DNA of 64,000 nt. Origin: an uncultured Mariniplasma sp. GTDB taxonomy: Bacteria; Bacillota_I; Bacilli_A; Acholeplasmatales; Acholeplasmataceae. Positions 2,599-51,814 of the stretch are shown here, one piece after another. The position numbers and the translations under genes are program-made. The notes beneath the pieces were generated by a model that made no database searches, was not told where the DNA came from, and saw nothing but the letters and a program-made list of their open reading frames with translations. The stretch spans positions 5,100 to 69,099 of the forward strand of contig CAZKLF010000002.1 of NCBI GenBank assembly GCA_964553665.1, read 5' to 3'. How positions within the stretch are numbered: the first letter of the stretch is position 1; each line of letters begins with the position of its first letter.

Positions 2599-2683
2599 TA
2601 GCTATCCATAGTTGTTTGCTAATAGAGTTTTAAAAAAACATGTATAATGTAAATATAAATTGGGAAATATTTGGGGTGAAATA

Positions 2684-4324
2684 GTGCAAAATAACAATCG
2701 CAACAACCATAAAAGACATAGTTATGATACTGATAACATTCTTAATGCAACACTCGTAACAGCTAAAATTATTATTTTTTATATATTTATTGGATTCGCC
2801 TGGATTCTTGCATCAGATTATTTTGTGAATTTGTTATTCACTGATCCAAATCAAGTTATCAGAGTACAAAGTATTAAAGGTATTTTATATGTGATAATAA
2901 CTGCAGTAATATTTTATTTTATCATTCACAAGAGCATGCGTATGTATATTGAACTTATAAGCGATTTGAAAATTACATATAAAAATTTAGATTTAAGCTA
3001 TCAAAAAACTCTAGAGTTGGATGATAAATTATTTCAATTAGCTTATTATGATTTGTTAACAGGCCTTCCAAATAAAGTATTATTAGAAAAAACTATAACT
3101 CAATATATTGGTGATCATCCAGATGATGGCATCGTTGGGTTTATTTATTTTGATATCGATGAATTTAGCAACATAAATGAGGTAAAAGGACATTCTGTAG
3201 GAGATCAATTACTGATTCAAATCGCAAAAAGTTTAAGTCAAGATATTGAAGCACCGAATATGTTAGCTAGAATTGGTGGCGATGAATTTGTTCTTGCATT
3301 ATTCAGCATGAATCAACTCGAAACTTTCATTCCACAAGTTGAACATTATATTGATACAATTAGAAAAATATTTATATTAGAAAAAGATGAGTTTTTTGTG
3401 ACATATAGCGTCGGTGTTGCTCTTTATCCTGATAATGGCAAAGATTATATTACTCTATTGAGACATGCTGATGCAGCACAATCAATCGCCAAATCTAAGG
3501 GAAAAGATCAAATTGTAATCTTCGATGATGAAATGGTTTCAATAATTAGGCAACAAACTGAACTCATTGCTCAATTAAGAAAAGCCATAGGAAATCAAGA
3601 ATTTTCTTTGCACTACCAACCGATTATAGACCTTAAAACAGACCAATCAATTGGCGTTGAAGCATTAATTCGTTGGCAGCATCCAACAAAAGGATTTATT
3701 CCCCCTTTAGAGTTTATTTCAATTTCAGAGAAAAACGGATACATTAAAGAGATTTCAGAGTGGGTATTTAAAGAGGTAGCTGAGCAATATGAGACATGGA
3801 ATGTAGAAGGTAAACAGTTTAGAATTGCAATCAATATTTCAGCAATAATGCTGATGTATGATCCATTTATACCTTATATGAACGAGTGGATAAACACGTA
3901 TCATTTAGATAGTTCAAGAATTGTATTAGAAATCACTGAATCCGCAATTATTGAAGATATTGAGAAAAGTATCCATGTTATTCATCAATTGAAAAAACTT
4001 GGTTTTATTGTTGCTTTAGATGATTTTGGTACTGGATATTCTTCTTTAACATATTTACAGAAATTGCCTATTGATATTATAAAAATAGATAGAGGCTTTA
4101 TTAGTAATATCAAACCGAACACAGAAGAGTTTTATGTTTTAAGATATATGATTGAATTAGCACATCATTTGAATTTGCTTGTTGTTGCAGAAGGAATTGA
4201 AACAATTGAACAAGCAAATATGGTTAAAAAGTATGATGTAGATTTAGCTCAAGGTTACTTTTTCTGTAGACCAATGCCTCAAACGAGAGTCGTTGAATAT
4301 TTAAAAGAAACGGATAGAAACTGA
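2684..4324 (+). CDS. Membrane-anchored GGDEF-EAL protein (diguanylate cyclase/phosphodiesterase)
   Basis: 2 N-terminal TM; YYDLLTGLPN, RIGGDEF, GVEALIRW, EITES, DDFGTGYSS; GTG start at 2684 follows GGGGTG RBS (track start 2660). Confidence 0.93.
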   Translation: MQNNNRNNHKRHSYDTDNILNATLVTAKIIIFYIFIGFAWILASDYFVNLLFTDPNQVIRVQSIKGILYVIITAVIFYFIIHKSMRMYIELISDLKITYKNLDLSYQKTLELDDKLFQLAYYDLLTGLPNKVLLEKTITQYIGDHPDDGIVGFIYFDIDEFSNINEVKGHSVGDQLLIQIAKSLSQDIEAPNMLARIGGDEFVLALFSMNQLETFIPQVEHYIDTIRKIFILEKDEFFVTYSVGVALYPDNGKDYITLLRHADAAQSIAKSKGKDQIVIFDDEMVSIIRQQTELIAQLRKAIGNQEFSLHYQPIIDLKTDQSIGVEALIRWQHPTKGFIPPLEFISISEKNGYIKEISEWVFKEVAEQYETWNVEGKQFRIAINISAIMLMYDPFIPYMNEWINTYHLDSSRIVLEITESAIIEDIEKSIHVIHQLKKLGFIVALDDFGTGYSSLTYLQKLPIDIIKIDRGFISNIKPNTEEFYVLRYMIELAHHLNLLVVAEGIETIEQANMVKKYDVDLAQGYFFCRPMPQTRVVEYLKETDRN

Positions 4325-7758: not shown

Positions 7759-7847
7759 ATTCAATTATGTGAATTAGTATAAAAGGATATATATAATTCA
7801 TTATATATGATAAAATTAACTCAAATGAAATAAAGGGGGTTTAATGT

Positions 7848-8435
7848 ATGTGGTGGGATAGCTTGTACGCATTTCAACAGATTATGCTTGTCTTAGCTAT
7901 TACAGCAACTGCTGTAATGTTGATTTTTATTGTATTAATGATTATCGGGATAGATAACTCTGATTTTGATGGTATTGACTCTCCGGATTTTCATTTGGAT
8001 ACGATCAATGATGAGCCTTTAAGCGCTATAGGAGGATTAAGAATTCTTAGTGTTAGAGGAATTCTTGCATTTATTAGTATTGGTGGCTGGGCAGCATTTT
8101 TATTCGCTGAAATCTTGTCCCCATTATGGTCATCTCTTATCGGGATTGCATTTGGAACTCTTGCTGCTTATCTCGTAGCATTAGCATTTAGAGCAATCTT
8201 TAAACTCGAAAGCTCGGGAAATATTGTATATGAGAATTCGATTGGTAAGGTAGGCACGGTCTATATACGTATTCCAAAAAAGAAGAGTGGTAAAGGTAAA
8301 GTATCAATTATTGTTCAAGAACGTTTGATTGAAGCAGATGCGATTACAGAAGAAGATCAAGATATCATGCCAAAATCAGAAGTTGAGGTTATAGGAATTA
8401 TCGAGACGACAACTATGATTGTCAAATCGAGATAA
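7848..8435 (+). CDS. NfeD-like membrane protein with C-terminal OB-fold (YqiJ-type)
   Basis: 3 TM then IGKVGTVYIRIP...GKV..IVQ...EADA NfeD C-domain pattern; directly upstream of flotillin. Confidence 0.8.
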   Translation: MWWDSLYAFQQIMLVLAITATAVMLIFIVLMIIGIDNSDFDGIDSPDFHLDTINDEPLSAIGGLRILSVRGILAFISIGGWAAFLFAEILSPLWSSLIGIAFGTLAAYLVALAFRAIFKLESSGNIVYENSIGKVGTVYIRIPKKKSGKGKVSIIVQERLIEADAITEEDQDIMPKSEVEVIGIIETTTMIVKSR

Positions 8436-8453
8436 AAAAAGGAGAATAAATTT

Positions 8454-9887
8454 ATGGATTTCATTGTATTATTAACATTTATGGACATTATTGGTCCAGT
8501 ATTTGCAGTTTTAGTTATAGTAGTTTCATTGCTAGCATTTGTAGTTGTAAGAATCAGAAGATGTCCATCAGATAAGATTTTAGTTGTTTATGGGAAAGTT
8601 GGCTCAAATGCCGATGGTACGCTTAAATCAGCATTATGTATGCATGGTGGGACAAAATTCATCATTCCATTTGTACAAGCATACCAATTCTTAGATTTGA
8701 CACCAATGTCAATTCAAGTTGATTTAACCAATGCACTTTCAAGACAGAACATTCGTATTGATGTACCTTCAAGATTTACTGTTGGTATCTCAACTGAAAC
8801 AGGTGTTATGCAGAATGCAGCTGAAAGATTATTAGGTCTGAAAATGACTGAAATACAAGAATTAGCAAAAGATATCATTTTTGGTCAATTACGTTTAGTT
8901 ATTGCAACAATGGATATCGAAGAAATAAATACCAATAGAGATAAATTTCTTGAAGCAGTTTCGGACAATGTTGAAACAGAATTAAAGAAAATTGGCTTAA
9001 GATTAATCAATGTTAATGTCACGGATATTAATGACGAATCTGGATATATTGAAGCATTAGGTAAAGAAGCAGCAGCAAAAGCAATTAATGATGCTAAAAA
9101 AACTGTTGCTGAAAAAAATAGAGATGGTTCTATTGGTGAAGCAAATGCACATAGAGATCAAAGAGTTCAAGTTGCTGATGCAAACTCTAAAGCTATCGAA
9201 GGTGAAAATAAATCACTTGGTGATATTTCACAAACAAATGCTTTACGCAGAGAAATTGAAGCTGAATCATTAAGAAGAGCCATGGTAGCTGAAAAAGTTG
9301 CAGCTGCAAAAGCTTTAGAAGATTCTTATTTGGCAGAACAAAATGCCGAACTCGCTCGTGCAACTCGTGAAAAAGCTACACTTGAAGCGGATGTTATTGT
9401 TAGATCTGAAATTGACAAACAAAAAGTTGTCATCGCTGCTGAAGCAATCGCTGAAGAAACAAGAAGAAAAGCTCGTGGACAAGCAGATGCAATCTTTGCA
9501 AAATTAGATGCAGAAGCTCGTGGTAGCCTTGAAATTTTATCTAAACAAGCTGAAGGTTTCAAACTCGTTGTTAATGCTGCTAATGATAATACAGATGCGG
9601 CAGTTAAGATGCTGATTGCTGATAAACTTGAAAAACTTGTTGCTATCCAAGTTGAAGCAATTAAGAACCTTAAATTTGATAAGATTACTGTTTTGGATAG
9701 TGGCTCAAAAGATGGAACAACCTCAACAGCTAATTTTGCATCAAATTTGATGAAATCAATTCCTCCTATGAAAGAACTATTTGATATGGCTGGACTTGAA
9801 TTGCCTAGATATTTAGGAACTGAAAAAGAAGTAAAATCTATCGAAGTTAAAAAAGAAGAAGTAAAAGTCGAAAAACCTAAAAAATAA
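8454..9887 (+). CDS. Flotillin-like SPFH domain protein
   Basis: N-terminal TM, SPFH domain (IEEINTNRDKF, NVTDIND), EA-rich coiled coil. Confidence 0.92.
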   Translation: MDFIVLLTFMDIIGPVFAVLVIVVSLLAFVVVRIRRCPSDKILVVYGKVGSNADGTLKSALCMHGGTKFIIPFVQAYQFLDLTPMSIQVDLTNALSRQNIRIDVPSRFTVGISTETGVMQNAAERLLGLKMTEIQELAKDIIFGQLRLVIATMDIEEINTNRDKFLEAVSDNVETELKKIGLRLINVNVTDINDESGYIEALGKEAAAKAINDAKKTVAEKNRDGSIGEANAHRDQRVQVADANSKAIEGENKSLGDISQTNALRREIEAESLRRAMVAEKVAAAKALEDSYLAEQNAELARATREKATLEADVIVRSEIDKQKVVIAAEAIAEETRRKARGQADAIFAKLDAEARGSLEILSKQAEGFKLVVNAANDNTDAAVKMLIADKLEKLVAIQVEAIKNLKFDKITVLDSGSKDGTTSTANFASNLMKSIPPMKELFDMAGLELPRYLGTEKEVKSIEVKKEEVKVEKPKK

Positions 9888-10636: not shown

Positions 10637-10872
10637 TTTGAATGCCTCCTTGTTTGACTTCATTTAATATACTCTGGTTTTACTATTTTATTGGTATATA
10701 AATGAAAAATGGTAAACCATGTGAAGAAAAATCTATCATATTACACTTAATTTTTTTATATCATAGCATAATAGGTGGGTTTTCGTGAGAAATAAGATAA
10801 TTTGTACTATTTATTTTGTCTTTGTATTTATTTGTATTATAATGAAGTTAAACTAGTAAGGGGGTTTTACCC

Positions 10873-11358
10873 ATGGGATTTTTTAAAAAAAGAAAGGCTC
10901 GCAAATTAGCAGAGCAACAAGCAGAAGAAGCTTTAGCAAGAAAAAAAGCTGAGCAAGCAAATGTTAAACCAGTGGTTAAGGTCAAAAAAGAAGTACCTGC
11001 AAAACCACAGCCAGTTGTAGAGAAAACTGTTAAGCAAGCAAAACCAACTCCAGCACCAAAAAAAGTAGTTGCTAAACCAAAAGTAGAAAAATCAAAACCA
11101 GCACCAAAAAAAATTGAGGACAAAAAAGAAGAAAAACCCGCGAAATATCATGTCTCTCAAAATAACAACGCAAAGAGTGAAAGACATAAAGATTGGCGCG
11201 TTAGAAAGCAAGGTTCTCAGAAGACAATTAAGTTTTTTGAAACTCAAAAAGAAGCTATTGAATATGCGGAGGATTTAGCTGAAACAGCTGGTTCATCAAT
11301 TGTAATACACAAAATGGATGGATCAATTAGAAAGCAAGATTATTCAAAAAAAGCATAG
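10873..11358 (+). CDS. DUF2188-domain protein with Lys/Pro/Ala-rich N-terminal extension
   Basis: C-terminal YHV...WRVRKQGSQKTIKFFETQKEAIEYA...IVIHKMDGSIR resembles DUF2188; low-complexity N-half. Confidence 0.75.
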   Translation: MGFFKKRKARKLAEQQAEEALARKKAEQANVKPVVKVKKEVPAKPQPVVEKTVKQAKPTPAPKKVVAKPKVEKSKPAPKKIEDKKEEKPAKYHVSQNNNAKSERHKDWRVRKQGSQKTIKFFETQKEAIEYAEDLAETAGSSIVIHKMDGSIRKQDYSKKA

Positions 11359-14515: not shown

Positions 14516-14545
14516 TTGACTTTTTAGTAGATAAACAGTTATAAT
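14516..14545 (+). promoter_or_regulatory. Sigma-A promoter for tRNA-Cys
   Basis: TTGACT-18 bp-TATAAT. Confidence 0.65.
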
Positions 14546-14561
14546 AATAAGGCATGTTTAT

Positions 14562-14635
14562 GGCCTCATAGCCAAGTGGTAAGGCAAGGCACTGCAACTG
14601 CCTGACCATCGGTTCAAATCCGTTTGAGGCCTCCA
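14562..14635 (+). tRNA. tRNA-Cys(GCA)
   Basis: GGCCTCA/TGAGGCC acceptor stem, U73, encoded CCA, AGGCA-CT GCA AC-TGCCT anticodon arm, GGTTCAAATCC T-arm; 74 nt. Confidence 0.97.
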
Positions 14636-19600: not shown

Positions 19601-20101
19601 ATGAACAGTCGATCAAAAATAACAAGCGAAAAACTTGGACTTTTTGAAATTCAAATTCAAAAAAACAAGCAACTTCCAGGACCACTAATGCCAACATTGC
19701 ATGATGCACAGCATATATTTGGTTATATTCCGATTTCAGTTCAAAAAATTATTGCAAAGGAATTAAATGTAAGTGTTGCTAAAATTAACGGTGTTGTAAC
19801 ATTTTACAGCAATTTTTCAGTTACACCTAAAGGAAGAAAATCCATTGGTGTATGTTTAGGTACTGCATGTTACGTCAGAGGTTCACAAACTATTATGGAT
19901 ACCCTAGAAGAAGATTTAGGTATCAAAGCTGGCGAAACAACTAAAGATGGTGAAATCACCTTATGCGCAACAAGATGTATTGGCGCATGTGGCTTAGCAC
20001 CTGTTTTTTCTATTGATGATCGTATTTTTGGAAATGCGACCATTTCAAAAGCAAAACAAATTATAAAAGATATGAAGGCAGAAGACAATGAAACTAAGTG
20101 A
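19601..20101 (+). CDS. hydC: [FeFe]-hydrogenase subunit HydC/NuoE-like ([2Fe-2S])
   Basis: VCLGTACYVRG ... RCIGACGLAP four-Cys motif. Confidence 0.92.
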   Translation: MNSRSKITSEKLGLFEIQIQKNKQLPGPLMPTLHDAQHIFGYIPISVQKIIAKELNVSVAKINGVVTFYSNFSVTPKGRKSIGVCLGTACYVRGSQTIMDTLEEDLGIKAGETTKDGEITLCATRCIGACGLAPVFSIDDRIFGNATISKAKQIIKDMKAEDNETK

Positions 20102-20471
20102 TATTATTCAAAAATACGACTTTAAGGTTTTTACACCCTTGTTGTTAAAGGAAAAAGAAATAACCTACGGTTTTTGTTCCGATTTGATGAGTGATGCTTT
20201 AATGATTTTAAATTCAGTTAAGAACCAGCGTATTTTAGATGAATCCATATTAATTACTGGATTAGCAACAAATCAATCCATTAGAACAGCAGAAATGTTA
20301 GATGTTGAAGTTGTTTTAATAGTTAGAGGGAAAGTCGTTTCACAAAAAGTAATTGATCTAGCTATAGAATCTAATATTATATTGATTGGTACCAATCTTA
20401 CGATGTTTAATACAAGTGGGAAGTTATTTGCAGATGGTATCAAGGGGATTTGTTACAACGAACAATGGTAG
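20088..20471 (+). CDS. DRTGG-domain protein
   Basis: GFCSDLMSDAL, ILITGL, IRTAEMLD, VRGK pattern; overlaps both neighbours. Confidence 0.8.
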   Translation: MKLSDIIQKYDFKVFTPLLLKEKEITYGFCSDLMSDALMILNSVKNQRILDESILITGLATNQSIRTAEMLDVEVVLIVRGKVVSQKVIDLAIESNIILIGTNLTMFNTSGKLFADGIKGICYNEQW

Positions 20472-20899
20472 AAAGAGAATATCAAATTATCGCACGTAAC
20501 TATGATTTAGCTGGAAGAGCATCAAGTAATATTAAACGGACATTAAAAGCATTATCATTAGATAATTATCTTATAAAAAAGGTTTGTTCGGCTTCATATG
20601 AAGCTGAGATTAATGTTGTTATACATTCTGTCGGTGGATATGCTTTATTTAATATGGATGAAGAAAAAATAGTTTTAGATTTTTATGATGATGGACCTGG
20701 GATTTTTGATATCGAATTAGCAATGGAAGAGGGATTTTCAACTGCTAATGAACTTGATCATGCAAATGGTTTTGGTGCTGGAATGGGTTTATTAAATATT
20801 AAACGTTCCGCAGATATTATGGAATTGACATCAGAACCTGATGAAACTCATATGAAACTTACCTTTTATTTAAAGGAGAGCCCAAATGACTTGTTATGA
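20465..20899 (+). CDS. RsbT/anti-sigma-like Ser/Thr kinase (GHKL ATPase)
   Basis: YEAEINVVIHS, DDGPGI, EGFSTA, GFGAGMGL. Confidence 0.85.
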   Translation: MVEREYQIIARNYDLAGRASSNIKRTLKALSLDNYLIKKVCSASYEAEINVVIHSVGGYALFNMDEEKIVLDFYDDGPGIFDIELAMEEGFSTANELDHANGFGAGMGLLNIKRSADIMELTSEPDETHMKLTFYLKESPNDLL

Positions 20900-21218
20900 C
20901 ATCCTTAATAGCCAATATCAATTATTGACAGCTGAATCTACTCAAATGAATTTATACAACGGCATATATACGACAGATCTATTAAGTGCAGCAATAAAAA
21001 GCTCAAAATCTGGAAATATATTGGTAACAATTATTTCTCATGGAAATACTGTAGCAACTGCAATGATGATTGATCTACCAATCATAATCATTTCTGAGTC
21101 TAGAAAAGTAGACCAAGAAATGATTGATAAAGCAAATGAATCAGGTATTGCTATTATATCAACACCTCTTTACACATATGAAGTCGTTATTGATTTAAAT
21201 AATAGAGGGTTGCTATGA
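20886..21218 (+). CDS. Second DRTGG-like protein
   Basis: GIYTTDLLS, NILVT, VATAMMIDLPIIII, KANESGIAIIST pattern. Confidence 0.7.
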   Translation: MTCYDILNSQYQLLTAESTQMNLYNGIYTTDLLSAAIKSSKSGNILVTIISHGNTVATAMMIDLPIIIISESRKVDQEMIDKANESGIAIISTPLYTYEVVIDLNNRGLL

Positions 21219-21916
21219 TTTATTACTATGACATACATATCCATTCGGTTCTATCAGCAGGTGCTGATGATTTAATGACACCAAATAATATATTTAACAT
21301 GGCTAATCTTAAAGAACTAAATATCATTGCTATTACTGATCACAACAGTATGAAGCAACTTCAAATATGTCAAGAAATATCAGAAAGTTATGATATGCTT
21401 TTCATTCCTGGAGTTGAAATATCGGTAAAAGATGGATTCCATGTTTTATGTTACTTTAAAAAAATAGAAGATGCTTTGAAATTTGATCAAACATTAGAAA
21501 AATATATGGATAAAATGATATATGATCACGAATATTATGGTGAACAACAAATTGTGGACATCGATGATCAAGTTGTTGAATTATATCCTTACTTTCTTTC
21601 ACCAAATCTTTCATTGAAGTTGAATGAATTAAAATTGGAATTAGAATTATACGATCATTTATTATTTTATGCACATATCAATCGAAAAGCGAATAGTGGA
21701 ATATCATATTACACACTTGATGCACTAGATGGTGTTGAACTCACAATGAATGCAAACTCAAAGTTTGCTATAAAACACCAATTAAAACAAGATAGAATAA
21801 TCTATAATTCTGATGCTCATCAAATCGTTGATATTTTAGAAAAAACAAACAAAAATCAAATCGAATTAGATGAATTATCAATAGATGCATTCTTCAGGTA
21901 TTTCACTCATGGATGA
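21215..21916 (+). CDS. PHP-family metallophosphoesterase
   Basis: DIHIHS, ITDHN, PGVEI, HVLCY, NSDAH. Confidence 0.9.
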   Translation: MIYYYDIHIHSVLSAGADDLMTPNNIFNMANLKELNIIAITDHNSMKQLQICQEISESYDMLFIPGVEISVKDGFHVLCYFKKIEDALKFDQTLEKYMDKMIYDHEYYGEQQIVDIDDQVVELYPYFLSPNLSLKLNELKLELELYDHLLFYAHINRKANSGISYYTLDALDGVELTMNANSKFAIKHQLKQDRIIYNSDAHQIVDILEKTNKNQIELDELSIDAFFRYFTHG

Positions 21917-22442
21917 TCTTAGTTTATATTTACAGGATATCATCCAAAATTCGATTACTGCAAAATCTTCAGTAATAGAGTGTATTATCAGCGAAGATCA
22001 AAATATCATGATTACCATCATTGATAATGGTATTGGAATGGCTCAAGAAGAGTTAAAAAAAGCAATAACACCATTTTATACAACAAGAACAACAAGGAAA
22101 GTTGGATTAGGATTGCCAATGATTCAAATGCTTGCTGAACAAACAGAAGGACATTTCGAAATCCAATCTAAAAAGAATGAAGGCACAAAACTGATGATTA
22201 CACTTAAACATCATCATATTGATATGCCTCCAATTGGTAATCTTGGAGAAATGGTTTACATGATAAGCATTCATCAAGATGTCGAAGAATTTATATTTAC
22301 ATATGAATTTAAACAAAAACAATATCAATTTGTACTATCAGAAATTAAAGAAGTATTAGGACCTACTATTGGTCAATATTCAATGATGAAAGCAATCATT
22401 GATATGGTTAACAAAGAAATTGAAAATATACGAGGTGTATGA
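21909..22442 (+). CDS. Histidine-kinase-like ATPase (HATPase_c only)
   Basis: QDIIQNS, DNGIGM, PFYTTRTTRKVGLGLP; no HisKA domain. Confidence 0.85.
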   Translation: MDDLSLYLQDIIQNSITAKSSVIECIISEDQNIMITIIDNGIGMAQEELKKAITPFYTTRTTRKVGLGLPMIQMLAEQTEGHFEIQSKKNEGTKLMITLKHHHIDMPPIGNLGEMVYMISIHQDVEEFIFTYEFKQKQYQFVLSEIKEVLGPTIGQYSMMKAIIDMVNKEIENIRGV

Positions 22443-22810
22443 TGAAATCACTAGAAGAACTAAAAAAATTGAGAGATGAATCTCTTAAAAAAATGACAAT
22501 GCGTTATGTCAAAGATGGCTTCCGTATCCAAGTCGGTATGGGAACTTGCGGTATAGCTTCAGGCGCACGACCAATTTTGGCAACTTTTTTAGAAGAAGTT
22601 GAAAAAAATGATTTGGGTAATGTAAGTGTTACTCAGGTTGGATGTATGGGTGAATGTGCTTATGAACCAATGGCTGAACTCATTGATGAACAAGGACAAT
22701 CATTTGTTTATTGTAATTTGACAGAGGCAACAGCAAGAGAAGTTATTTTAAGACATGTAATGAATCATGAGCCCATTTCAAAATTGTTATTAACAACAAA
22801 GAAAGGTTAG
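22439..22810 (+). CDS. hydD: Thioredoxin-like [2Fe-2S] ferredoxin subunit (HydD/HndB)
   Basis: VGMGTCGIASGA ... QVGCMGECAYEP. Confidence 0.88.
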   Translation: MMKSLEELKKLRDESLKKMTMRYVKDGFRIQVGMGTCGIASGARPILATFLEEVEKNDLGNVSVTQVGCMGECAYEPMAELIDEQGQSFVYCNLTEATAREVILRHVMNHEPISKLLLTTKKG

Positions 22811-22819
22811 GAGAAAATC

Positions 22820-24631
22820 ATGCTAGAAAGAAATCAAGTATTAATATGCGGTGGAACTGGGTGCATGAGCTCTAACTCAAAAGAAATCAAGGCTGAATTC
22901 GAAAAACAACTCACATCATTTGATTTGACTAGTGAAGTAGGACTTGTACTTACAGGATGCTTTGGATTATGCGAAAAAGGACCAATCATCGTTGTTTATC
23001 CAGAAGAAACCTTTTATACACATGTAAAAGTTGAAGATGTTAAAGACATATGCTCAGAACATCTACTCAAAGGAAGACCTGTCGAACGTCTTATGATTAA
23101 AGATCCTATCGATAAGAAAAAGATTAAAAATATGAGTCAACTCAAGTTTTATGCAAAACAAAAGAGAATTGTTTTGAGAAACTGTGGCAATATCAATCCA
23201 TTAGACATCAATGAATATATTGCAAAAGACGGATATCAAGCACTCGCTGATGTTTTAACATCTTATACACCTCAACAAGCTATTGATGAAGTGACTAAAT
23301 CAGGTTTAAAAGGTCGTGGTGGTGGAGGATTCTCCACAGGTAAAAAATGGCAATTCGCAAAAAATTCAGAATCTGATCAAAAATATGTTATTTGCAATGC
23401 TGATGAAGGCGATCCAGGTGCATTTATGGATCGTGCAGTATTAGAAGGCGATCCACATTCAATCTTAGAAGCAATGGCCATTTGTGGCTATGCAATTGGC
23501 GCGAATCAAGGGTATATATATGTACGCGCAGAATATCCTGTTGCGGTAGAACGTTTGAATAATGCAATTAAACAAGCACGTGAATATAATCTATTAGGAG
23601 ACCATCTATTTGATACAGACTTTAGTTTTGATATAGATATTAGACTGGGTGCTGGTGCATTTGTATGTGGGGAAGAAACCGCATTAATCGCATCAATTGA
23701 AGGTTATCGCGGGATGCCTAGGTTAAAACCTCCATTTCCAGCAATCAAAGGTCTTTGGGGAAAACCTACAAACGTCAATAACGTTGAAACATTCGCTAAT
23801 ATTCCGGTTATCTTTTTAAAAGGTGCTGATTGGTTTAAATCAATTGGAACTGAAAATTCAAGTGGAACAAAAGTCTTTGCTTTAGGTGGAAAGATTAATA
23901 ACACAGGTTTGGTTGAAGTTCCAATGGGAACAACACTTCGCGAAGTTATATTTGATATTGGTGGAGGTATTCCTAACAAACGTAGATTTAAAGCTGTTCA
24001 AACAGGTGGACCATCAGGTGGATGTATCACTGAAAAGGATTTAGATACGCCAATTGACTTTGAGAATCTTAAAAATCTAGGATCGATGATGGGTTCTGGT
24101 GGAATGATTGTAATGGATGAAGATAATTGTATGGTCGATGTTGCACGTTTCTATCTTGATTTTACGGTTGACGAATCATGTGGAAAATGCACACCTTGTC
24201 GTGAAGGAACCAAACAGATGCGTGATATTTTAAATCGCATATGTGAAGGACAAGGAACGTTAATAGATTTAGATGCATTGGAAGTTCTTGCACATATGAT
24301 TCAAAAAACTTCGTTATGTGGATTAGGTCAAACTGCACCTAACCCTGTCTTATCTACGCTTAAACATTTTAGAGAAGAATATATTGCGCATGTTGTTGAT
24401 AAGGCTTGTCCTGCAGGCGTATGCCGTGAGTTAACAAATTTCGTTATTGAAGATAATTGTATTGGTTGCACAATATGTGCTAGAAATTGCCCAGTTAACG
24501 CAATTTCAGGTTGGCCAAAACAAATACACAGAATAGACTTAGAACTTTGTATCGGTTGTGGAGCATGTAAAAAAACATGTCCTGTTGGCGCAATTTCAAG
24601 TCAACCTATGAATCAGGAGACAAGCTTATGA
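22820..24631 (+). CDS. hydB: NADH/FMN-binding hydrogenase subunit HydB (NuoF-like)
   Basis: GRGGGGF, CNADEGDPGAFMDR, GAGAFVCGEETAL, GGPSGG, CGKCTPCREG, two C-terminal CxxCxxCxxxCP. Confidence 0.95.
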   Translation: MLERNQVLICGGTGCMSSNSKEIKAEFEKQLTSFDLTSEVGLVLTGCFGLCEKGPIIVVYPEETFYTHVKVEDVKDICSEHLLKGRPVERLMIKDPIDKKKIKNMSQLKFYAKQKRIVLRNCGNINPLDINEYIAKDGYQALADVLTSYTPQQAIDEVTKSGLKGRGGGGFSTGKKWQFAKNSESDQKYVICNADEGDPGAFMDRAVLEGDPHSILEAMAICGYAIGANQGYIYVRAEYPVAVERLNNAIKQAREYNLLGDHLFDTDFSFDIDIRLGAGAFVCGEETALIASIEGYRGMPRLKPPFPAIKGLWGKPTNVNNVETFANIPVIFLKGADWFKSIGTENSSGTKVFALGGKINNTGLVEVPMGTTLREVIFDIGGGIPNKRRFKAVQTGGPSGGCITEKDLDTPIDFENLKNLGSMMGSGGMIVMDEDNCMVDVARFYLDFTVDESCGKCTPCREGTKQMRDILNRICEGQGTLIDLDALEVLAHMIQKTSLCGLGQTAPNPVLSTLKHFREEYIAHVVDKACPAGVCRELTNFVIEDNCIGCTICARNCPVNAISGWPKQIHRIDLELCIGCGACKKTCPVGAISSQPMNQETSL

Positions 24632-26388
24632 ACAAGCAAGTACACGTAACAATAAATGGTCAATGCTACACAGCTAATTCTGATCAATCAATCTTAAAAG
24701 TAGCAGAAGAAAATGATATTTTTATCCCTAGATTATGCTTTTTAGAAGGCATACATGAAGAAGGTAATTGTCGACTATGCTCTGTTAGAGTCAATGGACA
24801 AGAAAACTTAAAACCTGCATGCCGGACTCAAGTTGAAGATGGCATGAATATCATCACAGACGATCTGGAAATCTATCGTTCAGTTTCAACAAATTTAGAG
24901 TTATTATCTCACAAACATCGCTTTGAATGTTTTACTTGTTCAAGAGAAGATAATTGCGAGTTTCTAGATTTACTGAGAAGATATTCAGTTGAAAACGATT
25001 TAAATCATATGTATGGTCTTTATGATAAGCCTCTTTATTTTTCTGATTCTTCAGGTGTTATGGTTATCGATAGCAGCAAGTGCATTTTATGTGGACGTTG
25101 CGTATCAGCATGCGAACAATTAACTGGATTAAGTATTCTTGGGTTTAATGGTAGAGGATCTGATACGTATATTGGACCAGCTCTTTTCCATAACTTAGAA
25201 GATTCTGGATGTATTTATTGCGGTAAATGTATTCAAGCATGTCCAACTGGAGCATTAGGTGAAAAAGATGATGTTAAGAGTCTAGAATACGCACTTAGAG
25301 ATTCAAGTAAAACAATCATTGTTCAGGTCGCTCCATCAGTTAGAGCTGCTTTAGGTGAAGAATTTGGATATCCTATAGGAACCAACGTTGAAGGCCAAAT
25401 GTTTGCTGCACTTAGAGCATTAGGTATTCATCAAATTATGGATACCAATTTTACGGCAGATTTAACGATCCTTGAAGAAGGTACTGAATTTATAAATCGC
25501 CTTGAAAATGGTGGACCATTTCCAATGTTTACATCATGTTCACCAGGTTGGGTGAATTATTTAGAACTTTACAATTCTGAGCTCATTCCAAATTTATCAT
25601 CATGTAAATCACCACAACAAATGGCTGGAGCGCTTATAAAAACTTATTATGCAAAAGAATTGAGTTTGGATCCTAAAAATATTGTTTCTCTATCAATCAT
25701 GCCTTGCATCGCTAAAAAAGAGGAAGCAAGAAGAGAAGATATGGGTAGAGATGGATATCAAGATGTTGATATTGTCTTGACAACAAGAGAATTTGCAAGA
25801 TTAATTAAACATAAACAAATAGAATTTAGAAAGTTAGAACCAATTAAACCATTTGGTGCATTGGCAGTATATACGGGTGCTGGTAATATTTTTGGAGCAA
25901 CTGGTGGTGTTATGGAAGCTGCATTACGAACTGTTACAGAAATCCTAGAAGAAAAATCAACACCAATAGAATTCAAAGAACTTCGTGGTAATCAAGATAT
26001 TAAGGAAGCTACGTATAATGTTAAAGGCACAGATATCAATGTTGCTGTTGTGCATGGTGGGAAAGCTATTAAGACATTCTTAGACAATCTTAAAACAAGT
26101 GAAAAACAATATCATTTTGTTGAATTTATGGGATGTACTGGTGGATGTATTAATGGCGGAGGACAACCTATTGTTCCTGCAAAATTATTTGAAGCAAATG
26201 ATGTTAGAACACTAAGAGCATCAGTTCTTTATGGCATAGATGATAAAGCAACACTAAGGAAATCTCATCAAAATCCATCAGTTGTTAAATTGTATGAAAC
26301 ATTTTTAGGTAAGCCTAGTAGTCATTTATCACATGAACTACTTCATACACATTATCAAAAACGCGAAAGTTATAGTAAAATAAAATAG
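24628..26388 (+). CDS. hydA: [FeFe]-hydrogenase catalytic subunit HydA (group A3-like)
   Basis: N-terminal [2Fe-2S], His-ligated and 2x[4Fe-4S] motifs; H-cluster motifs TSCSPGW, MPCIAKKEE, EFMGCTGGCINGGGQP; ATGA overlap with hydB. Confidence 0.95.
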   Translation: MNKQVHVTINGQCYTANSDQSILKVAEENDIFIPRLCFLEGIHEEGNCRLCSVRVNGQENLKPACRTQVEDGMNIITDDLEIYRSVSTNLELLSHKHRFECFTCSREDNCEFLDLLRRYSVENDLNHMYGLYDKPLYFSDSSGVMVIDSSKCILCGRCVSACEQLTGLSILGFNGRGSDTYIGPALFHNLEDSGCIYCGKCIQACPTGALGEKDDVKSLEYALRDSSKTIIVQVAPSVRAALGEEFGYPIGTNVEGQMFAALRALGIHQIMDTNFTADLTILEEGTEFINRLENGGPFPMFTSCSPGWVNYLELYNSELIPNLSSCKSPQQMAGALIKTYYAKELSLDPKNIVSLSIMPCIAKKEEARREDMGRDGYQDVDIVLTTREFARLIKHKQIEFRKLEPIKPFGALAVYTGAGNIFGATGGVMEAALRTVTEILEEKSTPIEFKELRGNQDIKEATYNVKGTDINVAVVHGGKAIKTFLDNLKTSEKQYHFVEFMGCTGGCINGGGQPIVPAKLFEANDVRTLRASVLYGIDDKATLRKSHQNPSVVKLYETFLGKPSSHLSHELLHTHYQKRESYSKIK

Positions 26389-27328: not shown

Positions 27329-28063
27329 ATGAAAAAAACGATTTGGATGACAAGCTCAATCTTTACGATGTTTCTCATCTGGGTGATTGCTTATCAAGCA
27401 GTTAATCATCCAATCATTTTACCTTCCCCAATTGATGTTTTTAAAGCAATCATTGAAATTTTCACTCATCAGGATACTTTAAGTGCATTTGGATTAACTA
27501 TTGTTAGATTATTGTTGGCTATATTGATTTCCGCAGTCTTAGGTATCACTTTAGGTATCTTATCTGGATTTAAAAAGAATGTAGCAACATTCATGAAGCC
27601 ATATGTAACCATTTTAAGAACGATTCCAGTGATTTCTATTGTTGTTATCTTATTGATTCTATTTGGTTATGAGTACACTCCATATTTGATTACATTTTTA
27701 ATGGTTTTTCCGATTATTTATTCAGGTGTTTTAGAAGGTATTCATCAATTAGATCAAGAGTTGCTTGATGTCTACAAATTAGAACAACATGACTGGAAAC
27801 TTGCTCTAAAATTCATATATTTTCCTATGATTAGTAAATATATCTTCTTGTCTTTCCTTCAATCGTTCGGATTAGGTATCAAGGTATTGGTAATGGCTGA
27901 GTATTTATCTCAAAGTAAGCACTCAATTGGGAACGCAATATATTTAGCAAAGGTCAACATTGAATATGATTTAGTTTTTGCTTGGACAATTATTTTGATT
28001 TTAATGGCATTTTTAATAGAATACATTATACAAAACTATCAGAAGAAAAAACTGGCTAATTAA
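27329..28063 (+). CDS. ABC transporter permease (SsuC/TauC-like)
   Basis: ILPSPIDV, LRTIPVIS, EAA-like loop, SIGNAIY. Confidence 0.9.
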   Translation: MKKTIWMTSSIFTMFLIWVIAYQAVNHPIILPSPIDVFKAIIEIFTHQDTLSAFGLTIVRLLLAILISAVLGITLGILSGFKKNVATFMKPYVTILRTIPVISIVVILLILFGYEYTPYLITFLMVFPIIYSGVLEGIHQLDQELLDVYKLEQHDWKLALKFIYFPMISKYIFLSFLQSFGLGIKVLVMAEYLSQSKHSIGNAIYLAKVNIEYDLVFAWTIILILMAFLIEYIIQNYQKKKLAN

Positions 28064-28179: not shown

Positions 28180-28208
28180 TTGATATTTTTTGAGCCATCG
28201 TGTATAAT
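28180..28208 (+). promoter_or_regulatory. Sigma-A promoter with no downstream ORF
   Basis: TTGATA (28180-85)-17 bp-TATAAT (28203-08). Confidence 0.7.
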
Positions 28209-28212
28209 AATA

Positions 28213-28298
28213 GTGTTTCTCCTACCCTTTAGTAGGTGAGACCCGTGAATTAGTCCTAATGTCTACATCCCCCCCCAAGACATTAGGACCTTTTTTAT
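28213..28298 (+). ncRNA. Candidate small RNA (about 85 nt) with two hairpins and C-rich loops
   Basis: Promoter upstream; hairpin with CCCTTT at its apex; 12-bp stem GTCCTAATGTCT/AGACATTAGGAC with ACATCCCCCCCCA loop then T run; no ORF. Confidence 0.6.
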
Positions 28299-28364
28299 TT
28301 TTTTACTAAAAAAAGATAAAAATGATTAATCTCATTTCTATCTTTTTTATTTATTTAGAGTTGA

Positions 28365-29159
28365 TTATTTTGTTTTGCTAGCAAATCGGATAAAATCTAC
28401 AAATACTTTTTTCCATGCCGATTCATCGTGAATATCATCAGTTTCAATATAGAGAACATCTAGGACTTGTTTAGATTTGAGCAAGGACAGAAGATTTCTG
28501 CTATTTTCAAGATATATTTCATTGAATTCTCTTATAGAGGCATCGCTAGTTTCATGACTTCCAATTGAAATGAAGAATTTTTGATTAATATCTATATTTG
28601 AAGATTCTAAGAATTCTAAAAATGCATCTTCATTAAACCATGATGCTATTGAGAAAATACCAACATAGTGAAATAGATTAGGATATTTGATGGCTATATA
28701 TGCAGAAATATAAGCTCCCATTGAACTACCGGCAATCATTGAATGCTCATAATCAGGCATCGTTCTATAGGTGTTATCAATAAACGGTTTGACCTTATTA
28801 ACAACGAAATCAGCGTATATATCTCCTAATCCACCAACTTCAATATTAGAAATATTCTTTACGATAGATGATGATTTCCAAGGTGAGTACTCAAAAAGTC
28901 TTAAATCAGAGTTGTCAATACCCACTACAATGAGGTCCTGAATTGCTTTCTTTTCAACAAGATCTGAAATTGTTTTTGAAATTCCCCATGACTGACTAGA
29001 ATAAGAAGTTTTATCATCAAATAAGTTTTGTCCATCGTGCATATATAAAACCGGATATTTTCGAGAAGAAGTAACGTAATCTTCAGGTAAGAGAATTCTA
29101 ATTTTTCTTTGACTCTGGGTCGTATCAATGAATAGAGATTTTATTTCAGTAGTTTTCAT
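28365..29159 (-). CDS. Alpha/beta hydrolase (putative esterase)
   Basis: YPVLYMHDGQN, GSSMGA nucleophile elbow, HDESAW. Confidence 0.9.
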   Translation of the reverse strand: MKTTEIKSLFIDTTQSQRKIRILLPEDYVTSSRKYPVLYMHDGQNLFDDKTSYSSQSWGISKTISDLVEKKAIQDLIVVGIDNSDLRLFEYSPWKSSSIVKNISNIEVGGLGDIYADFVVNKVKPFIDNTYRTMPDYEHSMIAGSSMGAYISAYIAIKYPNLFHYVGIFSIASWFNEDAFLEFLESSNIDINQKFFISIGSHETSDASIREFNEIYLENSRNLLSLLKSKQVLDVLYIETDDIHDESAWKKVFVDFIRFASKTK

Positions 29160-50442: not shown

Positions 50443-50468
50443 AAAAAGGCACTTCATCGAAGTGCCTT
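50443..50468. terminator. Bidirectional terminator between convergent genes
   Basis: AAGGCACTT-catcg-AAGTGCCTT. Confidence 0.7.
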
Positions 50469-51204
50469 AAATTTTTGGCTCAAAGAATTCAAAAACTGTA
50501 TTGTGATAGTGGCTTTTCACAAAATCATATTCCTTTTGTGATCGAGCAGCGTAGCTTATGACAGTAAGACCTTTTTTCATAAGTTTATCTAAATATTTAT
50601 TTGGCATATCATAGATGCCGTAACTAACGAAATCTGGCTTAGTAAAGCGATTGAAGAATAACGATTTCATAAGGTATTTCGCTATAAAGTTCATCTTTTT
50701 ATCATCTTTGAAATATTCAGAAATTTGTCCTCTGATGATTTCGGGGTGGTATTTTTTGAACCATGAAACAACTTTAGGATGAAATGAAAAAATTGCCCAA
50801 GCACCTTGATAATCTTGTATTGTTTTCATAAATGATTCACATAAGAATATGACGTCTCCATGAGGTTTGAGTTCTATCAAGAGAGGGACTTTTCCATTGA
50901 TTATTTTTAATACCTGATCAAATTTAGGTATTTTTTCTTCAGTTTTTAATAACTTGAGATTTTTACATTCTTCATAGGTGACATCTCTTAATTCTCTATC
51001 ATCATTACACATTCTTTTGAAATGATGGTCATGAAAAGCTAACACTGTCCCATCTTTTAATACATTGATATCAAGTTCGATTGAATATCCTTTTTCCAAT
51101 GCTTTTGTGTATGATGCAATTGAGTTTTCTGGGACTGATAAATCAATGGAATGGAGTCCTCTATGAGCGATTAAATTATTTTGTATCCAGTTTAAATTTT
51201 TCAT
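50467..51204 (-). CDS. Glycerophosphodiester phosphodiesterase
   Basis: IAHRG, PENS, IELD, FHD, IELK; start 51204 after GGGGA RBS. Confidence 0.9.
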   Translation of the reverse strand: MKNLNWIQNNLIAHRGLHSIDLSVPENSIASYTKALEKGYSIELDINVLKDGTVLAFHDHHFKRMCNDDRELRDVTYEECKNLKLLKTEEKIPKFDQVLKIINGKVPLLIELKPHGDVIFLCESFMKTIQDYQGAWAIFSFHPKVVSWFKKYHPEIIRGQISEYFKDDKKMNFIAKYLMKSLFFNRFTKPDFVSYGIYDMPNKYLDKLMKKGLTVISYAARSQKEYDFVKSHYHNTVFEFFEPKI

Positions 51205-51211
51205 ATATCCC

Positions 51212-51814
51212 CTAAGGCATAAGCCCATAAATAAGCATTCCTAAAATTGCAGAAAATAAAATGATTTTAATGGGAGACATCTTCTTATAAAAGATGGTTG
51301 CCACCCCTATAATAATAAGGATGATAAGACCTTTATAATTGAATCCTATAAAATTAAAAGTTAAGCTCTCAAAATCAATATTAGGTAATGCTGCATGAAC
51401 GATCAATGCAACAGAAACACTTATGATCAATCCAATAACTACTGGTTTGAGACCCAGAAATACGCGGTTAACAATTTTACTTTCTAAGAATTTACTTCCA
51501 AGACTTGCTATAAGTAAAATAATAATAAATGAGGGAAGAGCAACACCTAAAGTGGTTGCAACTGCTCCAAGTAACGAAGCGCCTATCCCAATATGTTCAA
51601 ACTGACTCATTCCAATAAATGTAGCCATATTGACAGCGACAGGACCAGGAGTTGATTCGCTAATTCCAATGAAATTATAAAGAATTTCAGCGGATATATA
51701 ACCACCACCAACAAGTTCTGATTTAATCAGTGGAATCATAGCATATCCACCACCAAAAGTGAACAATCCTATTTTGAAAAACATCCAAAAGAGATTAAGC
51801 AGAGTGAGAAACAT
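51212..51814 (-). CDS. Short-chain chromate transporter (CHR family) subunit
   Basis: FKIGLFTFGGGYAM, SESTPGP, GVALPSF. Confidence 0.9.
   Translation of the reverse strand: MFLTLLNLFWMFFKIGLFTFGGGYAMIPLIKSELVGGGYISAEILYNFIGISESTPGPVAVNMATFIGMSQFEHIGIGASLLGAVATTLGVALPSFIIILLIASLGSKFLESKIVNRVFLGLKPVVIGLIISVSVALIVHAALPNIDFESLTFNFIGFNYKGLIILIIIGVATIFYKKMSPIKIILFSAILGMLIYGLMP

What the first reader, a model, noticed from the sequence alone, without database searches (positions are those of the whole stretch)
28180..28298. Orphan promoter-to-terminator small RNA displaying C-rich loops
A near-consensus promoter (TTGATA-17-TATAAT) drives about 85 nt with no ORF. There is a 5' hairpin with CCCUUU at the apex, then a perfect 12-bp terminator stem with an unusually large loop ACAUCCCCCCCCA. 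Exposed C-rich loops are how Firmicute sRNAs (RNAIII, RsaE/RoxS, FsrA) pair with G-rich Shine-Dalgarno sequences. G-run RBSs in this window are candidate targets: nfeD (TAAAGGGGG near 7831), DUF2188 (AAGGGGG near 10858) and GDPD (GGGGATAT on the minus strand, 51205-12). Trans-acting sRNAs are little described in this lineage.
Basis: partly seen in the sequence, partly recalled or inferred. Interest (0 to 1): 0.7.

Follow-up and report, generated by a model that had tools for sequence, protein, structure and literature searches.

The report
Conserved C-loop small RNA gene
The flagged 120 bases are a real, strongly conserved small-RNA gene of marine and groundwater Acholeplasma relatives, absent from Rfam, whose exposed run of cytosines probably pairs with the unusual G-run ribosome-binding sites of a few genes; no expression data exist yet.

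Summary
These are TTGATA-17-TATAAT, a 5' hairpin with a CCCUUU loop, and a 12-bp stem with the 13-nt loop ACAUC8A followed by U6. The promoter match alone is not above chance. The evidence for a gene comes from relatives. The window is a Mariniplasma-like (Acholeplasmataceae) MAG. Ten lineages reached through the neighbouring ABC permease protein (79% down to 53% identity) carry the same unit at the same site, and one lineage lacks it. Conservation starts at the -35 box and ends at the terminator. Permease third codon positions are 33-54% identical, while the RNA core is 89-98% identical. Five base pairs show compensatory changes. The loop always holds 7-9 C. In one subclade the C-loop hairpin is internal and a separate terminator follows, so it is more than a terminator. 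Rfam 15 has no matching family. No transcript evidence could be obtained. The best functional reading is an LhrC/RsaE-like riboregulator of G-rich Shine-Dalgarno sites. In about 250 kb held, GGGGG ribosome-binding sites occur only at a NfeD-position gene upstream of flotillin and at a DUF2188 gene. The NfeD-position site is conserved in 6 of 6 clade members. One assembly lacking the RNA at this site has GGGAGG instead. The near-invariance of the lower stem is unexplained.

The parts
28180..28185 (+). -35 box TTGATA
   Evidence: Conserved as TTGATA, TTGACT, TTGACA or TTGCTA with a 17-nt spacer in relatives.
28203..28208 (+). -10 box TATAAT, preceded by the conserved TCATG/TCGTG
   Evidence: TATAAT is invariant in all relatives.
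28215..28296 (+). Predicted small RNA, about 82 nt. The 5' end is inferred as G28215, 7 nt after the -10 box. The 3' end is inferred within the U tract.
   Evidence: Conservation begins at the promoter and ends at the terminator. CM R1 scores 115 bits here. The ends are inferred, not mapped.
28215..28242 (+). Hairpin P1: 28215-28225 pairs with 28232-28242. It has one U-U mismatch in the window and is 11 bp in most relatives. Loop CCUUUA lies at 28226-28231.
   Evidence: Fold -11.1 kcal/mol. Three pairs carry compensatory changes.
28243..28252 (+). Single-stranded linker CCGUGAAUUA. The CGUGAAUU core is invariant in all 17 sequences.
   Evidence: The CCC that spans the last P1 pair and the linker start (28242-28244) becomes CGC or CUC in L025 and L026.
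28253..28289 (+). Hairpin P2: a 12-bp stem with the 13-nt loop ACAUCCCCCCCCA (28265-28277)
   Evidence: Fold -16.8 kcal/mol, z = -8. Paired in 100% of cells, with two compensatory pairs and two G-U transitions, all in the upper stem.
28269..28276 (+). C8 run in the P2 loop
   Evidence: The only C or G run of 6 or more in the window. It has 7, 8 or 9 C in all relatives, including those found through the protein.
28291..28296 (+). U tract of the intrinsic terminator
   Evidence: It is absent after P2 in L013, L015 and L027, where a second hairpin plus U tract follows about 20 nt downstream.
7835..7839 (+). GGGGG Shine-Dalgarno of the 195-aa membrane-protein gene upstream of flotillin (NfeD/YuaF-like by position). 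Candidate target.
   Evidence: G5 is conserved in L021-L024 and L029. It reads GGGAGG in L030.
10860..10864 (+). GGGGG Shine-Dalgarno of the DUF2188 gene. Candidate target.
   Evidence: G5 is also present at the L023 ortholog.
28309..28348 (-). AT-rich hairpin plus U run: the esterase(-) gene's own terminator. It is not part of the small RNA.

Best explanation
This is an independently transcribed, non-coding small RNA gene of about 82 nt (about 125 nt in one subclade). It belongs to the core genome of a clade of Acholeplasmataceae that includes Mariniplasma-like MAGs. It sits at a fixed site between an ABC permease gene and esterase genes. A sigma-A-type promoter is inferred to start the RNA at the foot of hairpin P1. 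The RNA folds into two hairpins joined by an invariant single-stranded CGUGAAUU linker. It displays pyrimidine motifs in both apical loops: CC(C)UUU in P1 and C7-9 in P2. The most likely mechanism is antisense pairing of these loops with G-rich ribosome-binding sites of the type AAAGGGGGU. This would block 30S binding and perhaps trigger RNase cleavage, as the UCCC/C-rich sRNAs LhrC, RsaE/RoxS and RNAIII do in other Bacillota without needing Hfq. The best candidate targets are the operon of a NfeD-position membrane protein with flotillin, and a DUF2188 gene. Shown here: the gene's conservation, the structure with covariation, the conserved promoter, the conserved loops and the conserved G5 sites. 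Inferred: transcription and the RNA ends, the pairing, and the regulatory outcome.
For: Conservation. All six species-level genomes found through the permease protein (75-79% identity) carry the unit, with conservation bounded by the -35 box and the terminator. More distant lineages anchored on the protein also carry it: L025, L026, L027 and L031 (permease 59, 58, 60 and 54% identical).
Purifying selection. Permease third codon positions are 33-54% identical, while the RNA core is 89-98% identical.
Structure. RNAalifold predicts the same two hairpins on its own. 98.1% of cells are paired, against 40-50% when partners are slid. Five pairs have compensatory changes, and 0 of 500 shuffles reach that.
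Independence from neighbours. The window, L012 and L018 lack the co-directional esterase but keep the RNA. Relatives have a TGnTAnAAT promoter for that esterase after the RNA's terminator. L013, L015 and L027 have a terminator for the permease upstream of the RNA's promoter, and P2 there is not a terminator.
Loops. C7-9 is present in every member. The P1 loop always reads CC(C)UUU.
Targets. Only 2 of 56 starts in the window have a G5 Shine-Dalgarno site. In about 250 kb of window plus relatives, genuine G5 sites occur only at these two gene families. At the NfeD-position gene it is conserved in 6 of 6 clade lineages despite diverged 5' UTRs. It reads GGGAGG in assembly GCA_018818595.1, whose syntenic site lacks the RNA. 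The loop-to-site duplex energies of these two genes (-15.6 and -15.9 kcal/mol) fall below the 1st percentile (-13.3) of random sites in the window.
Precedent. LhrC uses UCCC motifs in loop A, the linker and the terminator loop to bind a G-rich Shine-Dalgarno region (PMC4132741). RoxS/RsaE uses C-rich regions, including a CCCCUUUGUU repeat (PMC4409812).
Against: There is no transcript evidence of any kind. The organism is known only from metagenomes, and no RNA run held the sequence.
Pairing with the candidates is only 5 G-C pairs for the C loop and 7 pairs for the P1 loop, with no extended complementarity.
Shine-Dalgarno sites are conserved in general; the flotillin AAGGAGAA site is conserved too. 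Conservation of G5 is therefore weak evidence by itself.
The co-variation rests on one outgroup assembly, and absence of the RNA elsewhere in that genome was not shown.
The lower six base pairs of P2 and the linker are invariant at divergences where stems should covary. A seed-presenting hairpin does not require that.
Only fragments of the genomes could be searched for targets.
Confidence: 0.45

Rival explanations
1. It is a real small RNA, but its main function is not Shine-Dalgarno pairing. It would be a protein-binding or RNP-forming RNA, such as a sponge or cofactor for an RNA-binding protein, a ribonuclease or the ribosome, recognised through the invariant linker, lower P2 stem and ACAUC(n) loop.
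For: The CGUGAAUU linker, the GUCCUA/UAGGAC lower stem and the ACAU-C7-9 loop are invariant in 17 sequences, across lineages whose permease is only 53-60% identical and whose third codon positions are saturated. All four stem changes lie in the upper four pairs. This pattern is typical of sequence-specific recognition rather than a generic stem.
Against: No candidate partner gene is linked to it; the neighbours are a transporter, esterases and an aldo-keto reductase. No known protein-binding RNA family matches. C-rich loops have a well-documented pairing role in Bacillota. The two functions are not mutually exclusive.
Confidence: 0.25
2. It is a cis-acting leader or attenuator of the downstream co-directional esterase gene found in most relatives, with P2 as the regulated terminator.
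For: In 12 of the 16 full-length lineages (L012, cut at its 5' end, is left out) an esterase gene follows on the same strand about 40-110 nt after the element. A promoter, a structured RNA and a terminator is the layout of a riboswitch-like leader.
Against: The window, L012 and L018 have lost that esterase. The next gene is convergent, yet the element is intact. A TGnTAnAAT promoter sits between the terminator and the esterase start in the relatives read. In L013, L015 and L027 P2 has no U tract. No conserved antiterminator alternative exists: the UAGGA/UCCUA pairing drops to 3-4 bp in the window and L013 (read directly from alignment A5). No Rfam cis-regulatory family matches.
Confidence: 0.06
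3. It is only the intrinsic terminator of the ABC-transporter operon (and/or of the convergent esterase), and the upstream promoter-like hexamers are chance.
For: In the window there is no stable hairpin between the permease stop codon and the element (z = +0.55), so operon transcripts probably do end at P2. A promoter match of this quality is not above chance in this AT-rich window.
Against: The promoter hexamers and their spacing are conserved in all lineages while the flanks are unalignable. P1 and the linker are conserved and covary. L013, L015 and L027 have a separate permease terminator upstream, and P2 there lacks a U tract. The esterase(-) gene has its own terminator, and on the minus strand P2 is not followed by U's. 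Terminators do not show 89-98% identity at saturated divergence.
Confidence: 0.03
4. It encodes a translated mini-ORF: GUG AAU UAG in most members and GUG AAU UGG UCC UAG/UAA in L025 and L026. A Shine-Dalgarno-like P1 3' arm (AGGAG, AGGUG or GGGGAG) lies 6-7 nt upstream. Ribosome loading there would modulate P2 formation.
For: The purine-rich P1 3' arm and the invariant GUG are correctly spaced, and an in-frame stop follows within 2-4 codons in all members (read from alignment A5).
Against: The Shine-Dalgarno-like arm is sequestered in P1 and is poor in L009 (GUAGUUGAG). The 'peptide' is not conserved in length. The longer frame through the loop is broken by the C7/C8/C9 length changes. Where P2 is not a terminator the model has no output. 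No precedent ties such a unit to an orphan transcript.
Confidence: 0.04
5. It is a DNA-level element: a palindromic protein-binding or recombination site with a phase-variable poly-C tract.
For: It has a perfect 12-bp inverted repeat with nearly invariant arms. The homopolymer tract differs in length (7, 8 or 9) between lineages.
Against: The changes in the arms preserve pairing (UA>CG, GC>AU, AU>GU, UA>UG) rather than a half-site sequence, and G-U intermediates only make sense in RNA. P1 covaries. The promoter and terminator are conserved. Nothing comparable occurs in phage or plasmid collections, and there is no mobile-element gene nearby.
Confidence: 0.02

Closest known systems
LhrC family sRNAs of Listeria monocytogenes (LhrC1-5; PMC4132741)
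   Same: About 100 nt with two hairpins, G-poor, and Hfq-independent. C-rich, U-flanked motifs are displayed in the first hairpin loop, in the linker and in the terminator loop itself. In LhrC all three can bind the G-rich Shine-Dalgarno region of a target. Here CC(C)UUU sits in loop 1 and C7-9 in the loop of the terminator hairpin.
   Different: No sequence or covariance-model similarity. One copy per locus, not multicopy. A homopolymeric C7-9 run replaces CUCCC. The linker CCC is not conserved across the family. The stem sequence is nearly invariant. Regulation and targets are unknown.
RsaE/RoxS (Rfam RF01820; PMC4409812)
   Same: A conserved Bacillota riboregulator with several C-rich regions in unpaired segments that pair with Shine-Dalgarno sites. 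Its repeated CCCCUUUGUU motif resembles the P1 loop here: CCCUUUAGU, CCCUUUGGU or CCCUUUUGU.
   Different: It fails the Rfam model. The best score on any member was 12.5 bits against a gathering score of 79, with E = 6.8, and it was not reproduced. The second C-rich site lies in a hairpin loop rather than a single-stranded stretch. The genomic context differs. No link to ResDE, SrrAB or Rex, or to TCA-cycle targets, could be examined.
UCCC-motif sRNAs of Staphylococcus aureus (RNAIII hairpins, RsaA/G/H, SprD) and FsrA/CsfG of Bacillus subtilis
   Same: The same general principle: a C-rich apical loop contacts a Shine-Dalgarno site (as summarised).
   Different: Unrelated sequences and sizes. 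None carries a C7-9 homopolymer loop, as far as the two papers read here describe.

Membership tests
RsaE/RoxS (RF01820) | Match to the Rfam covariance model at or above the gathering score (79 bits) | tested here: not met
   Not listed for the window at E <= 10. One 12.5-bit hit (E = 6.8) on L025 was not reproduced on a narrower range. None on L027.
RsaE/RoxS (RF01820) | Several C-rich regions in unpaired segments, including a duplicated CCCCUUUGUU-type motif | tested here: inconclusive
   C-rich motifs occupy both loops. The P1 loop CCCUUU(A/G)GU resembles the motif quoted in PMC4409812, but it is not duplicated, and the second site is a pure C run.
RsaE/RoxS (RF01820) | Control by a redox or NO-sensing regulator, and targets in central metabolism | not testable with these tools
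   No complete genome or expression data are available for this clade.
LhrC family | Match to an Rfam model of the family | tested here: not met
   No LhrC hit at E <= 10 on the window, L025 or L027.
LhrC family | Two hairpins with C-rich motifs in loop A, the linker and the terminator loop | tested here: inconclusive
   Met for both loops in all 17 sequences. The linker CCC is present in 15 and replaced by CGC or CUC in L025 and L026. In L013, L015 and L027 the second hairpin is not the terminator.
LhrC family | Multicopy gene family | tested here: not met
   CM R1 finds one copy per locus and none elsewhere in the 64-kb window. Complete genomes were not available.
Trans-acting base-pairing sRNA (generic) | Own promoter and own terminator, conserved as a unit and independent of the flanking genes | tested here: met
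Trans-acting base-pairing sRNA (generic) | A detectable discrete transcript | not testable with these tools
   Only metagenome DNA runs hold the sequence. RNA runs from the same studies had no contig on it.
Trans-acting base-pairing sRNA (generic) | A conserved accessible seed with conserved complementary sites in target mRNAs | tested here: inconclusive
   The loops are conserved. G5 Shine-Dalgarno sites are conserved at two gene families and occur only there in about 250 kb. The pairing is short, and only genome fragments were searched.
Riboswitch or attenuator leader | A co-directional downstream gene under control of the terminator | tested here: not met
   In the window, L012 and L018 the next gene is convergent. 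In relatives a separate promoter precedes the esterase.

The most novel reading that the evidence does not exclude
The RNA is the specific regulator of a small 'G5 Shine-Dalgarno regulon' that includes the flotillin/NfeD membrane-microdomain operon in wall-less Acholeplasmataceae. The targets would carry a deliberately non-canonical GGGGG ribosome-binding site that co-evolves with a homopolymeric C7-9 loop. In addition, the invariant lower stem and linker would be the binding site of a still unknown protein partner, which would make it a two-function RNP rather than a simple antisense RNA.
Probability: 0.15. Interest if true: 0.65.

Novelty: new member of a known kind. Interest (0 to 1): 0.5.

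Why it matters
Free-living and environmental relatives of Acholeplasma are known almost entirely from metagenomes. This locus gives a well-defined RNA family supported by comparative evidence. It comes with a covariance model, a fixed genomic address, a clear structure and two concrete candidate targets. It can therefore be annotated in MAGs straight away and tested in any cultured member of the clade. If the pairing model holds, the C-rich-loop mode of translational control would extend from Bacillales to the Mollicute branch of Bacilli. It would also link that mode of control to flotillin-type membrane organisation in cells without a wall. If the model fails, the very high sequence constraint still marks an RNA with an important unknown partner.

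Tried and rejected
- **Rfam.** The whole window was searched at gathering thresholds, and the element and two divergent members at E <= 10. No family matched. A 12.5-bit RsaE hit on L025 was not reproducible.
- **Transcript evidence.** Searches by 31-mer index and contig laying found only metagenome DNA. One 153-nt low-depth contig came from a run of unknown type (X15). It starts inside the promoter and runs about 55 nt past the terminator, so it says nothing about RNA ends. Metatranscriptomes from the same studies as a relative had nothing on it.
- **Mobile-element origin.** There was no blastn match in the phage or plasmid collections and no hit in viral contigs.
- **Paralogs.** The CM search found one copy per locus; the remaining low-scoring matches were mostly the antisense echo of the palindromic P2.
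- **Extended complementarity in the window.** No match longer than 10 nt was found. The 10-mers fit chance. The GTGAATTAGT upstream of the NfeD-position gene is an identity, not a complement, and is not conserved in relatives.
- **RNAcofold target ranking.** Rejected as a method, because it cannot represent loop-to-Shine-Dalgarno kissing and ranked a U-tail/A-run pairing first.
- **Antiterminator alternative** (P1 3' arm UAGGA with P2 5' arm UCCUA). It is not conserved.
- **Coding reading.** The 16-codon ATG frame through the loop is broken by the C7/8/9 length changes. The 2-4 codon GUG mini-ORF is kept only as a low-probability rival.
- **L009 and L010** place the RNA in unrelated contexts. 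They are low-coverage contigs; L009 starts with a sequencing adapter, and their flanks diverge exactly at the edges of the element. I treated them as chimeric.
- **L011** from the pattern scan is a GC-rich false positive.

Full report
**1. What is in the window**

Bases 28180-28298 lie in a 301-bp gap. The gap separates the stop codon of an ABC permease gene (27329-28063, +) from the stop codon of a convergent esterase gene (28365-29159, -).

- TTGATA, a 17-nt spacer, then TATAAT (28180-28208; 11 of 12 matches).
- Hairpin P1 (28215-28242) with loop CCUUUA.
- A 10-nt linker (28243-28252).
- Hairpin P2: a perfect 12-bp stem (28253-28264 with 28278-28289) closing the loop ACAUCCCCCCCCA.
- U6 at 28291-28296.

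The RNA folds far better than shuffles (-29.9 against -11.3 kcal/mol, z = -6.3). C8 is the only C or G run of six or more in the 64 kb, which is 32% G+C. No ORF of 30 codons or more overlaps the element.

The promoter match alone means little. The window has 8 matches of this quality, and shuffles give 6.4 +/- 2.0.

On the minus strand the esterase has its own AT-rich terminator (28309-28348), and P2 is not followed by U's there. Between the permease stop and the promoter there is no stable structure. In this genome, operon transcripts therefore probably also end at P2.

**2. Where the window comes from**

The exact sequence occurs in one marine-metagenome run.

A protein-anchored scan of one genome per species found six relatives of the permease at 75-79% identity. 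Their records are titled uncultured Mariniplasma sp., Acholeplasmataceae, Acholeplasmatales or Bacillota MAGs.

The local gene order is conserved: HydB, HydA, lipoprotein-type binding protein, permease, [element], esterase(+), esterase(-), aldo-keto reductase, DUF554.

**3. The element is conserved as a unit**

All six relatives carry it immediately after the permease gene. In the alignment, identity begins at the -35 box and stops at the terminator U tract. The flanks are unalignable.

An exact-pattern scan of metagenome contigs added 12 loci. That scan required the linker and six C's, so it is biased for those features. One further hit was a false positive, and two of the 12 loci are chimeric low-coverage contigs.

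To remove the bias, I fetched more distant permease homologs by protein identity:
- L025, L026 and L027 (58-60% identity) carry the element.
- L031, an 'Acholeplasma sp.' MAG (54% by global alignment; 53% in the search table), also carries it.
- L028 (57%, with a different downstream gene) does not carry it.

Against the window, permease third codon positions are 33-54% identical. The RNA from P1 to P2 is 79-92% identical. Its core, from the linker to the end of P2, is 89-98% identical, and most differences there are loop-length changes. A covariance model built from the family finds one copy per locus and none elsewhere in the window.

**4. Structure**

RNAalifold independently predicts the two hairpins.

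On 16 sequences, 98.1% of cells form standard pairs, against 40-50% when the 3' partners are slid by 1-3 columns. Five pairs carry compensatory changes: three in P1 and two in P2. No shuffle out of 500 reaches the observed paired fraction, number of compensatory pairs or covariation score. L031 adds a further P1 variant with a bulge and a U-A to U-G change in P2.

The G-U intermediates, and changes that preserve pairing rather than sequence, argue for an RNA helix and not a DNA operator.

**5. It is more than a terminator or a leader**

- In L013, L015 and L027, P2 is followed by unrelated sequence. A second hairpin plus U tract follows about 20 nt downstream. The permease gene also has its own terminator upstream of the element's promoter. 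In that subclade the C-loop hairpin is an internal domain of a longer RNA of about 125 nt.
- In the window, L012 and L018 the co-directional esterase has been lost, yet the element is intact.
- Where that esterase exists, a TGnTAnAAT promoter lies between the element's terminator and the esterase start.

These three facts exclude the 'terminator only' reading and make the 'leader of the esterase' reading unlikely.

**6. What is invariant**

Across 17 sequences the following do not change:
- the 5' GUUU, followed by C in all but L005;
- CGUGAAUU in the linker;
- the lower P2 stem GUCCUA/UAGGAC;
- the loop start ACAU;
- at least seven C's (7 in L005, L025, L026 and L031; 9 in L002, L009 and L018; 8 elsewhere).

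The P1 loop always reads CC(C)UUU. The CCC at the linker start becomes CGC or CUC in L025 and L026, so it is not a conserved C-rich site. The invariance of the lower stem is more than a stem that merely presents a loop would need. I cannot explain it.

**7. Function**

No Rfam 15 family matches the window or two divergent members. A 12.5-bit RsaE hit on L025 (gathering score 79) was not reproducible.

By architecture the closest described RNAs are two:
- LhrC. Its UCCC motifs in loop A, the linker and the terminator loop each bind the G-rich Shine-Dalgarno region of lapB (PMC4132741).
- RsaE/RoxS. Its C-rich regions, including a repeated CCCCUUUGUU, block ribosome binding (PMC4409812).

- Of 56 gene starts in the window, only two have a GGGGG Shine-Dalgarno site. 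One is a 195-aa membrane-protein gene directly upstream of flotillin. It is NfeD/YuaF-like by position only and has no Pfam or NCBIfam hit. The other is a DUF2188 gene.
- These two rank first for duplex energy with the C loop. Their values (-15.6 and -15.9 kcal/mol) fall below the 1st percentile (-13.3) of random sites.
- In about 250 kb of window plus relatives, genuine G5 ribosome-binding sites occur only at these two gene families.
- The G5 site of the NfeD-position gene is kept in six of six lineages of the clade, although the short 5' UTRs have diverged. These include L022, which lies on the same contig as the RNA copy L003.
- In L030 the site reads GGGAGG. L030 comes from the same assembly as L028, the one lineage without the RNA at the syntenic site.
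- The third named target, GDPD, has AGGGGA before an internal ATG and was not examined in relatives.

This evidence fits the pairing model but does not prove it. The pairings are short: five G-C pairs with loop 2 and seven pairs with loop 1 in the window. Shine-Dalgarno sites are conserved anyway. The co-variation rests on one outgroup, whose whole genome was not searched.

**8. Expression**

Nothing could be learned here. Only DNA metagenomes hold the sequence. Metatranscriptomes from studies that hold a relative had no contig on it, and such contig sets cannot show absence. Transcription, the start at G28215 and the 3' end in the U tract are inferences from the conserved promoter and terminator.

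**9. Verdict**

The element is a real, conserved, structured, independently organised small-RNA gene. It is specific to a clade of Acholeplasmataceae and is not catalogued in Rfam. I put that at about 0.85. That it works as a C-loop riboregulator of G-rich ribosome-binding sites is the best available mechanism, at about 0.45. A protein-binding role is the main rival and could coexist with it. It is a new member of a known kind, and of moderate interest.

Noticed in passing
window 28300-28365 compared with L002:1960-2780 and the equivalent regions of L003-L007: Most relatives have two esterase genes (PF00756) after the small RNA, one on each strand. The window, L012 and L018 have lost the co-directional one and keep only the convergent one.
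   Followed up: partly
L003:6755-6775, L006:6755-6775, L007:3250-3270: A short motif, (T)ATGCATAGCATA, recurs just after the permease stop codon in three relatives. It is absent from the window, and its function is unknown.
   Followed up: no
L009 (1-70) and L010: Two ENA marine contigs carry the small RNA between unrelated flanks. L009 begins with a sequencing-adapter sequence, and both have about 3.8x coverage. They look like chimeric assemblies joined at the edges of the element.
   Followed up: partly
window 7848-9887 and 10873-11358: The 195-aa membrane-protein gene plus flotillin (Band_7) operon and the DUF2188 gene both have short leaders behind TGnTAnAAT-type promoters and the motif AAGGGGGU(U). 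The 195-aa protein has no Pfam or NCBIfam hit. Its start MWW(D/E/N) is conserved.
   Followed up: partly
window 19601-26388: A gene cluster for an NADH-linked [FeFe] hydrogenase. It includes a NuoF-like 51K subunit with 2Fe-2S thioredoxin-like and 4Fe-4S domains, a HydA large subunit, a PHP-domain protein and a histidine-kinase-like ATPase. It lies directly upstream of the binding-protein/permease pair. No ABC ATPase gene is adjacent.
   Followed up: partly
window 14516-14632: A near-consensus promoter (TTGACT-18-TATAAT) lies directly upstream of the only tRNA gene in the window (14562-14632).
   Followed up: no
window 50467-51228 (-): The mechanical GDPD ORF probably starts at the internal ATG at 51203, which is preceded by AGGGGA. 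Its first 8 codons overlap the end of the upstream chromate-transporter gene.
   Followed up: no
window 2660-4324: A GGDEF-EAL protein (c-di-GMP turnover) is encoded in this Mollicute-related genome. Its mechanical TTG start has no recognisable ribosome-binding site.
   Followed up: no
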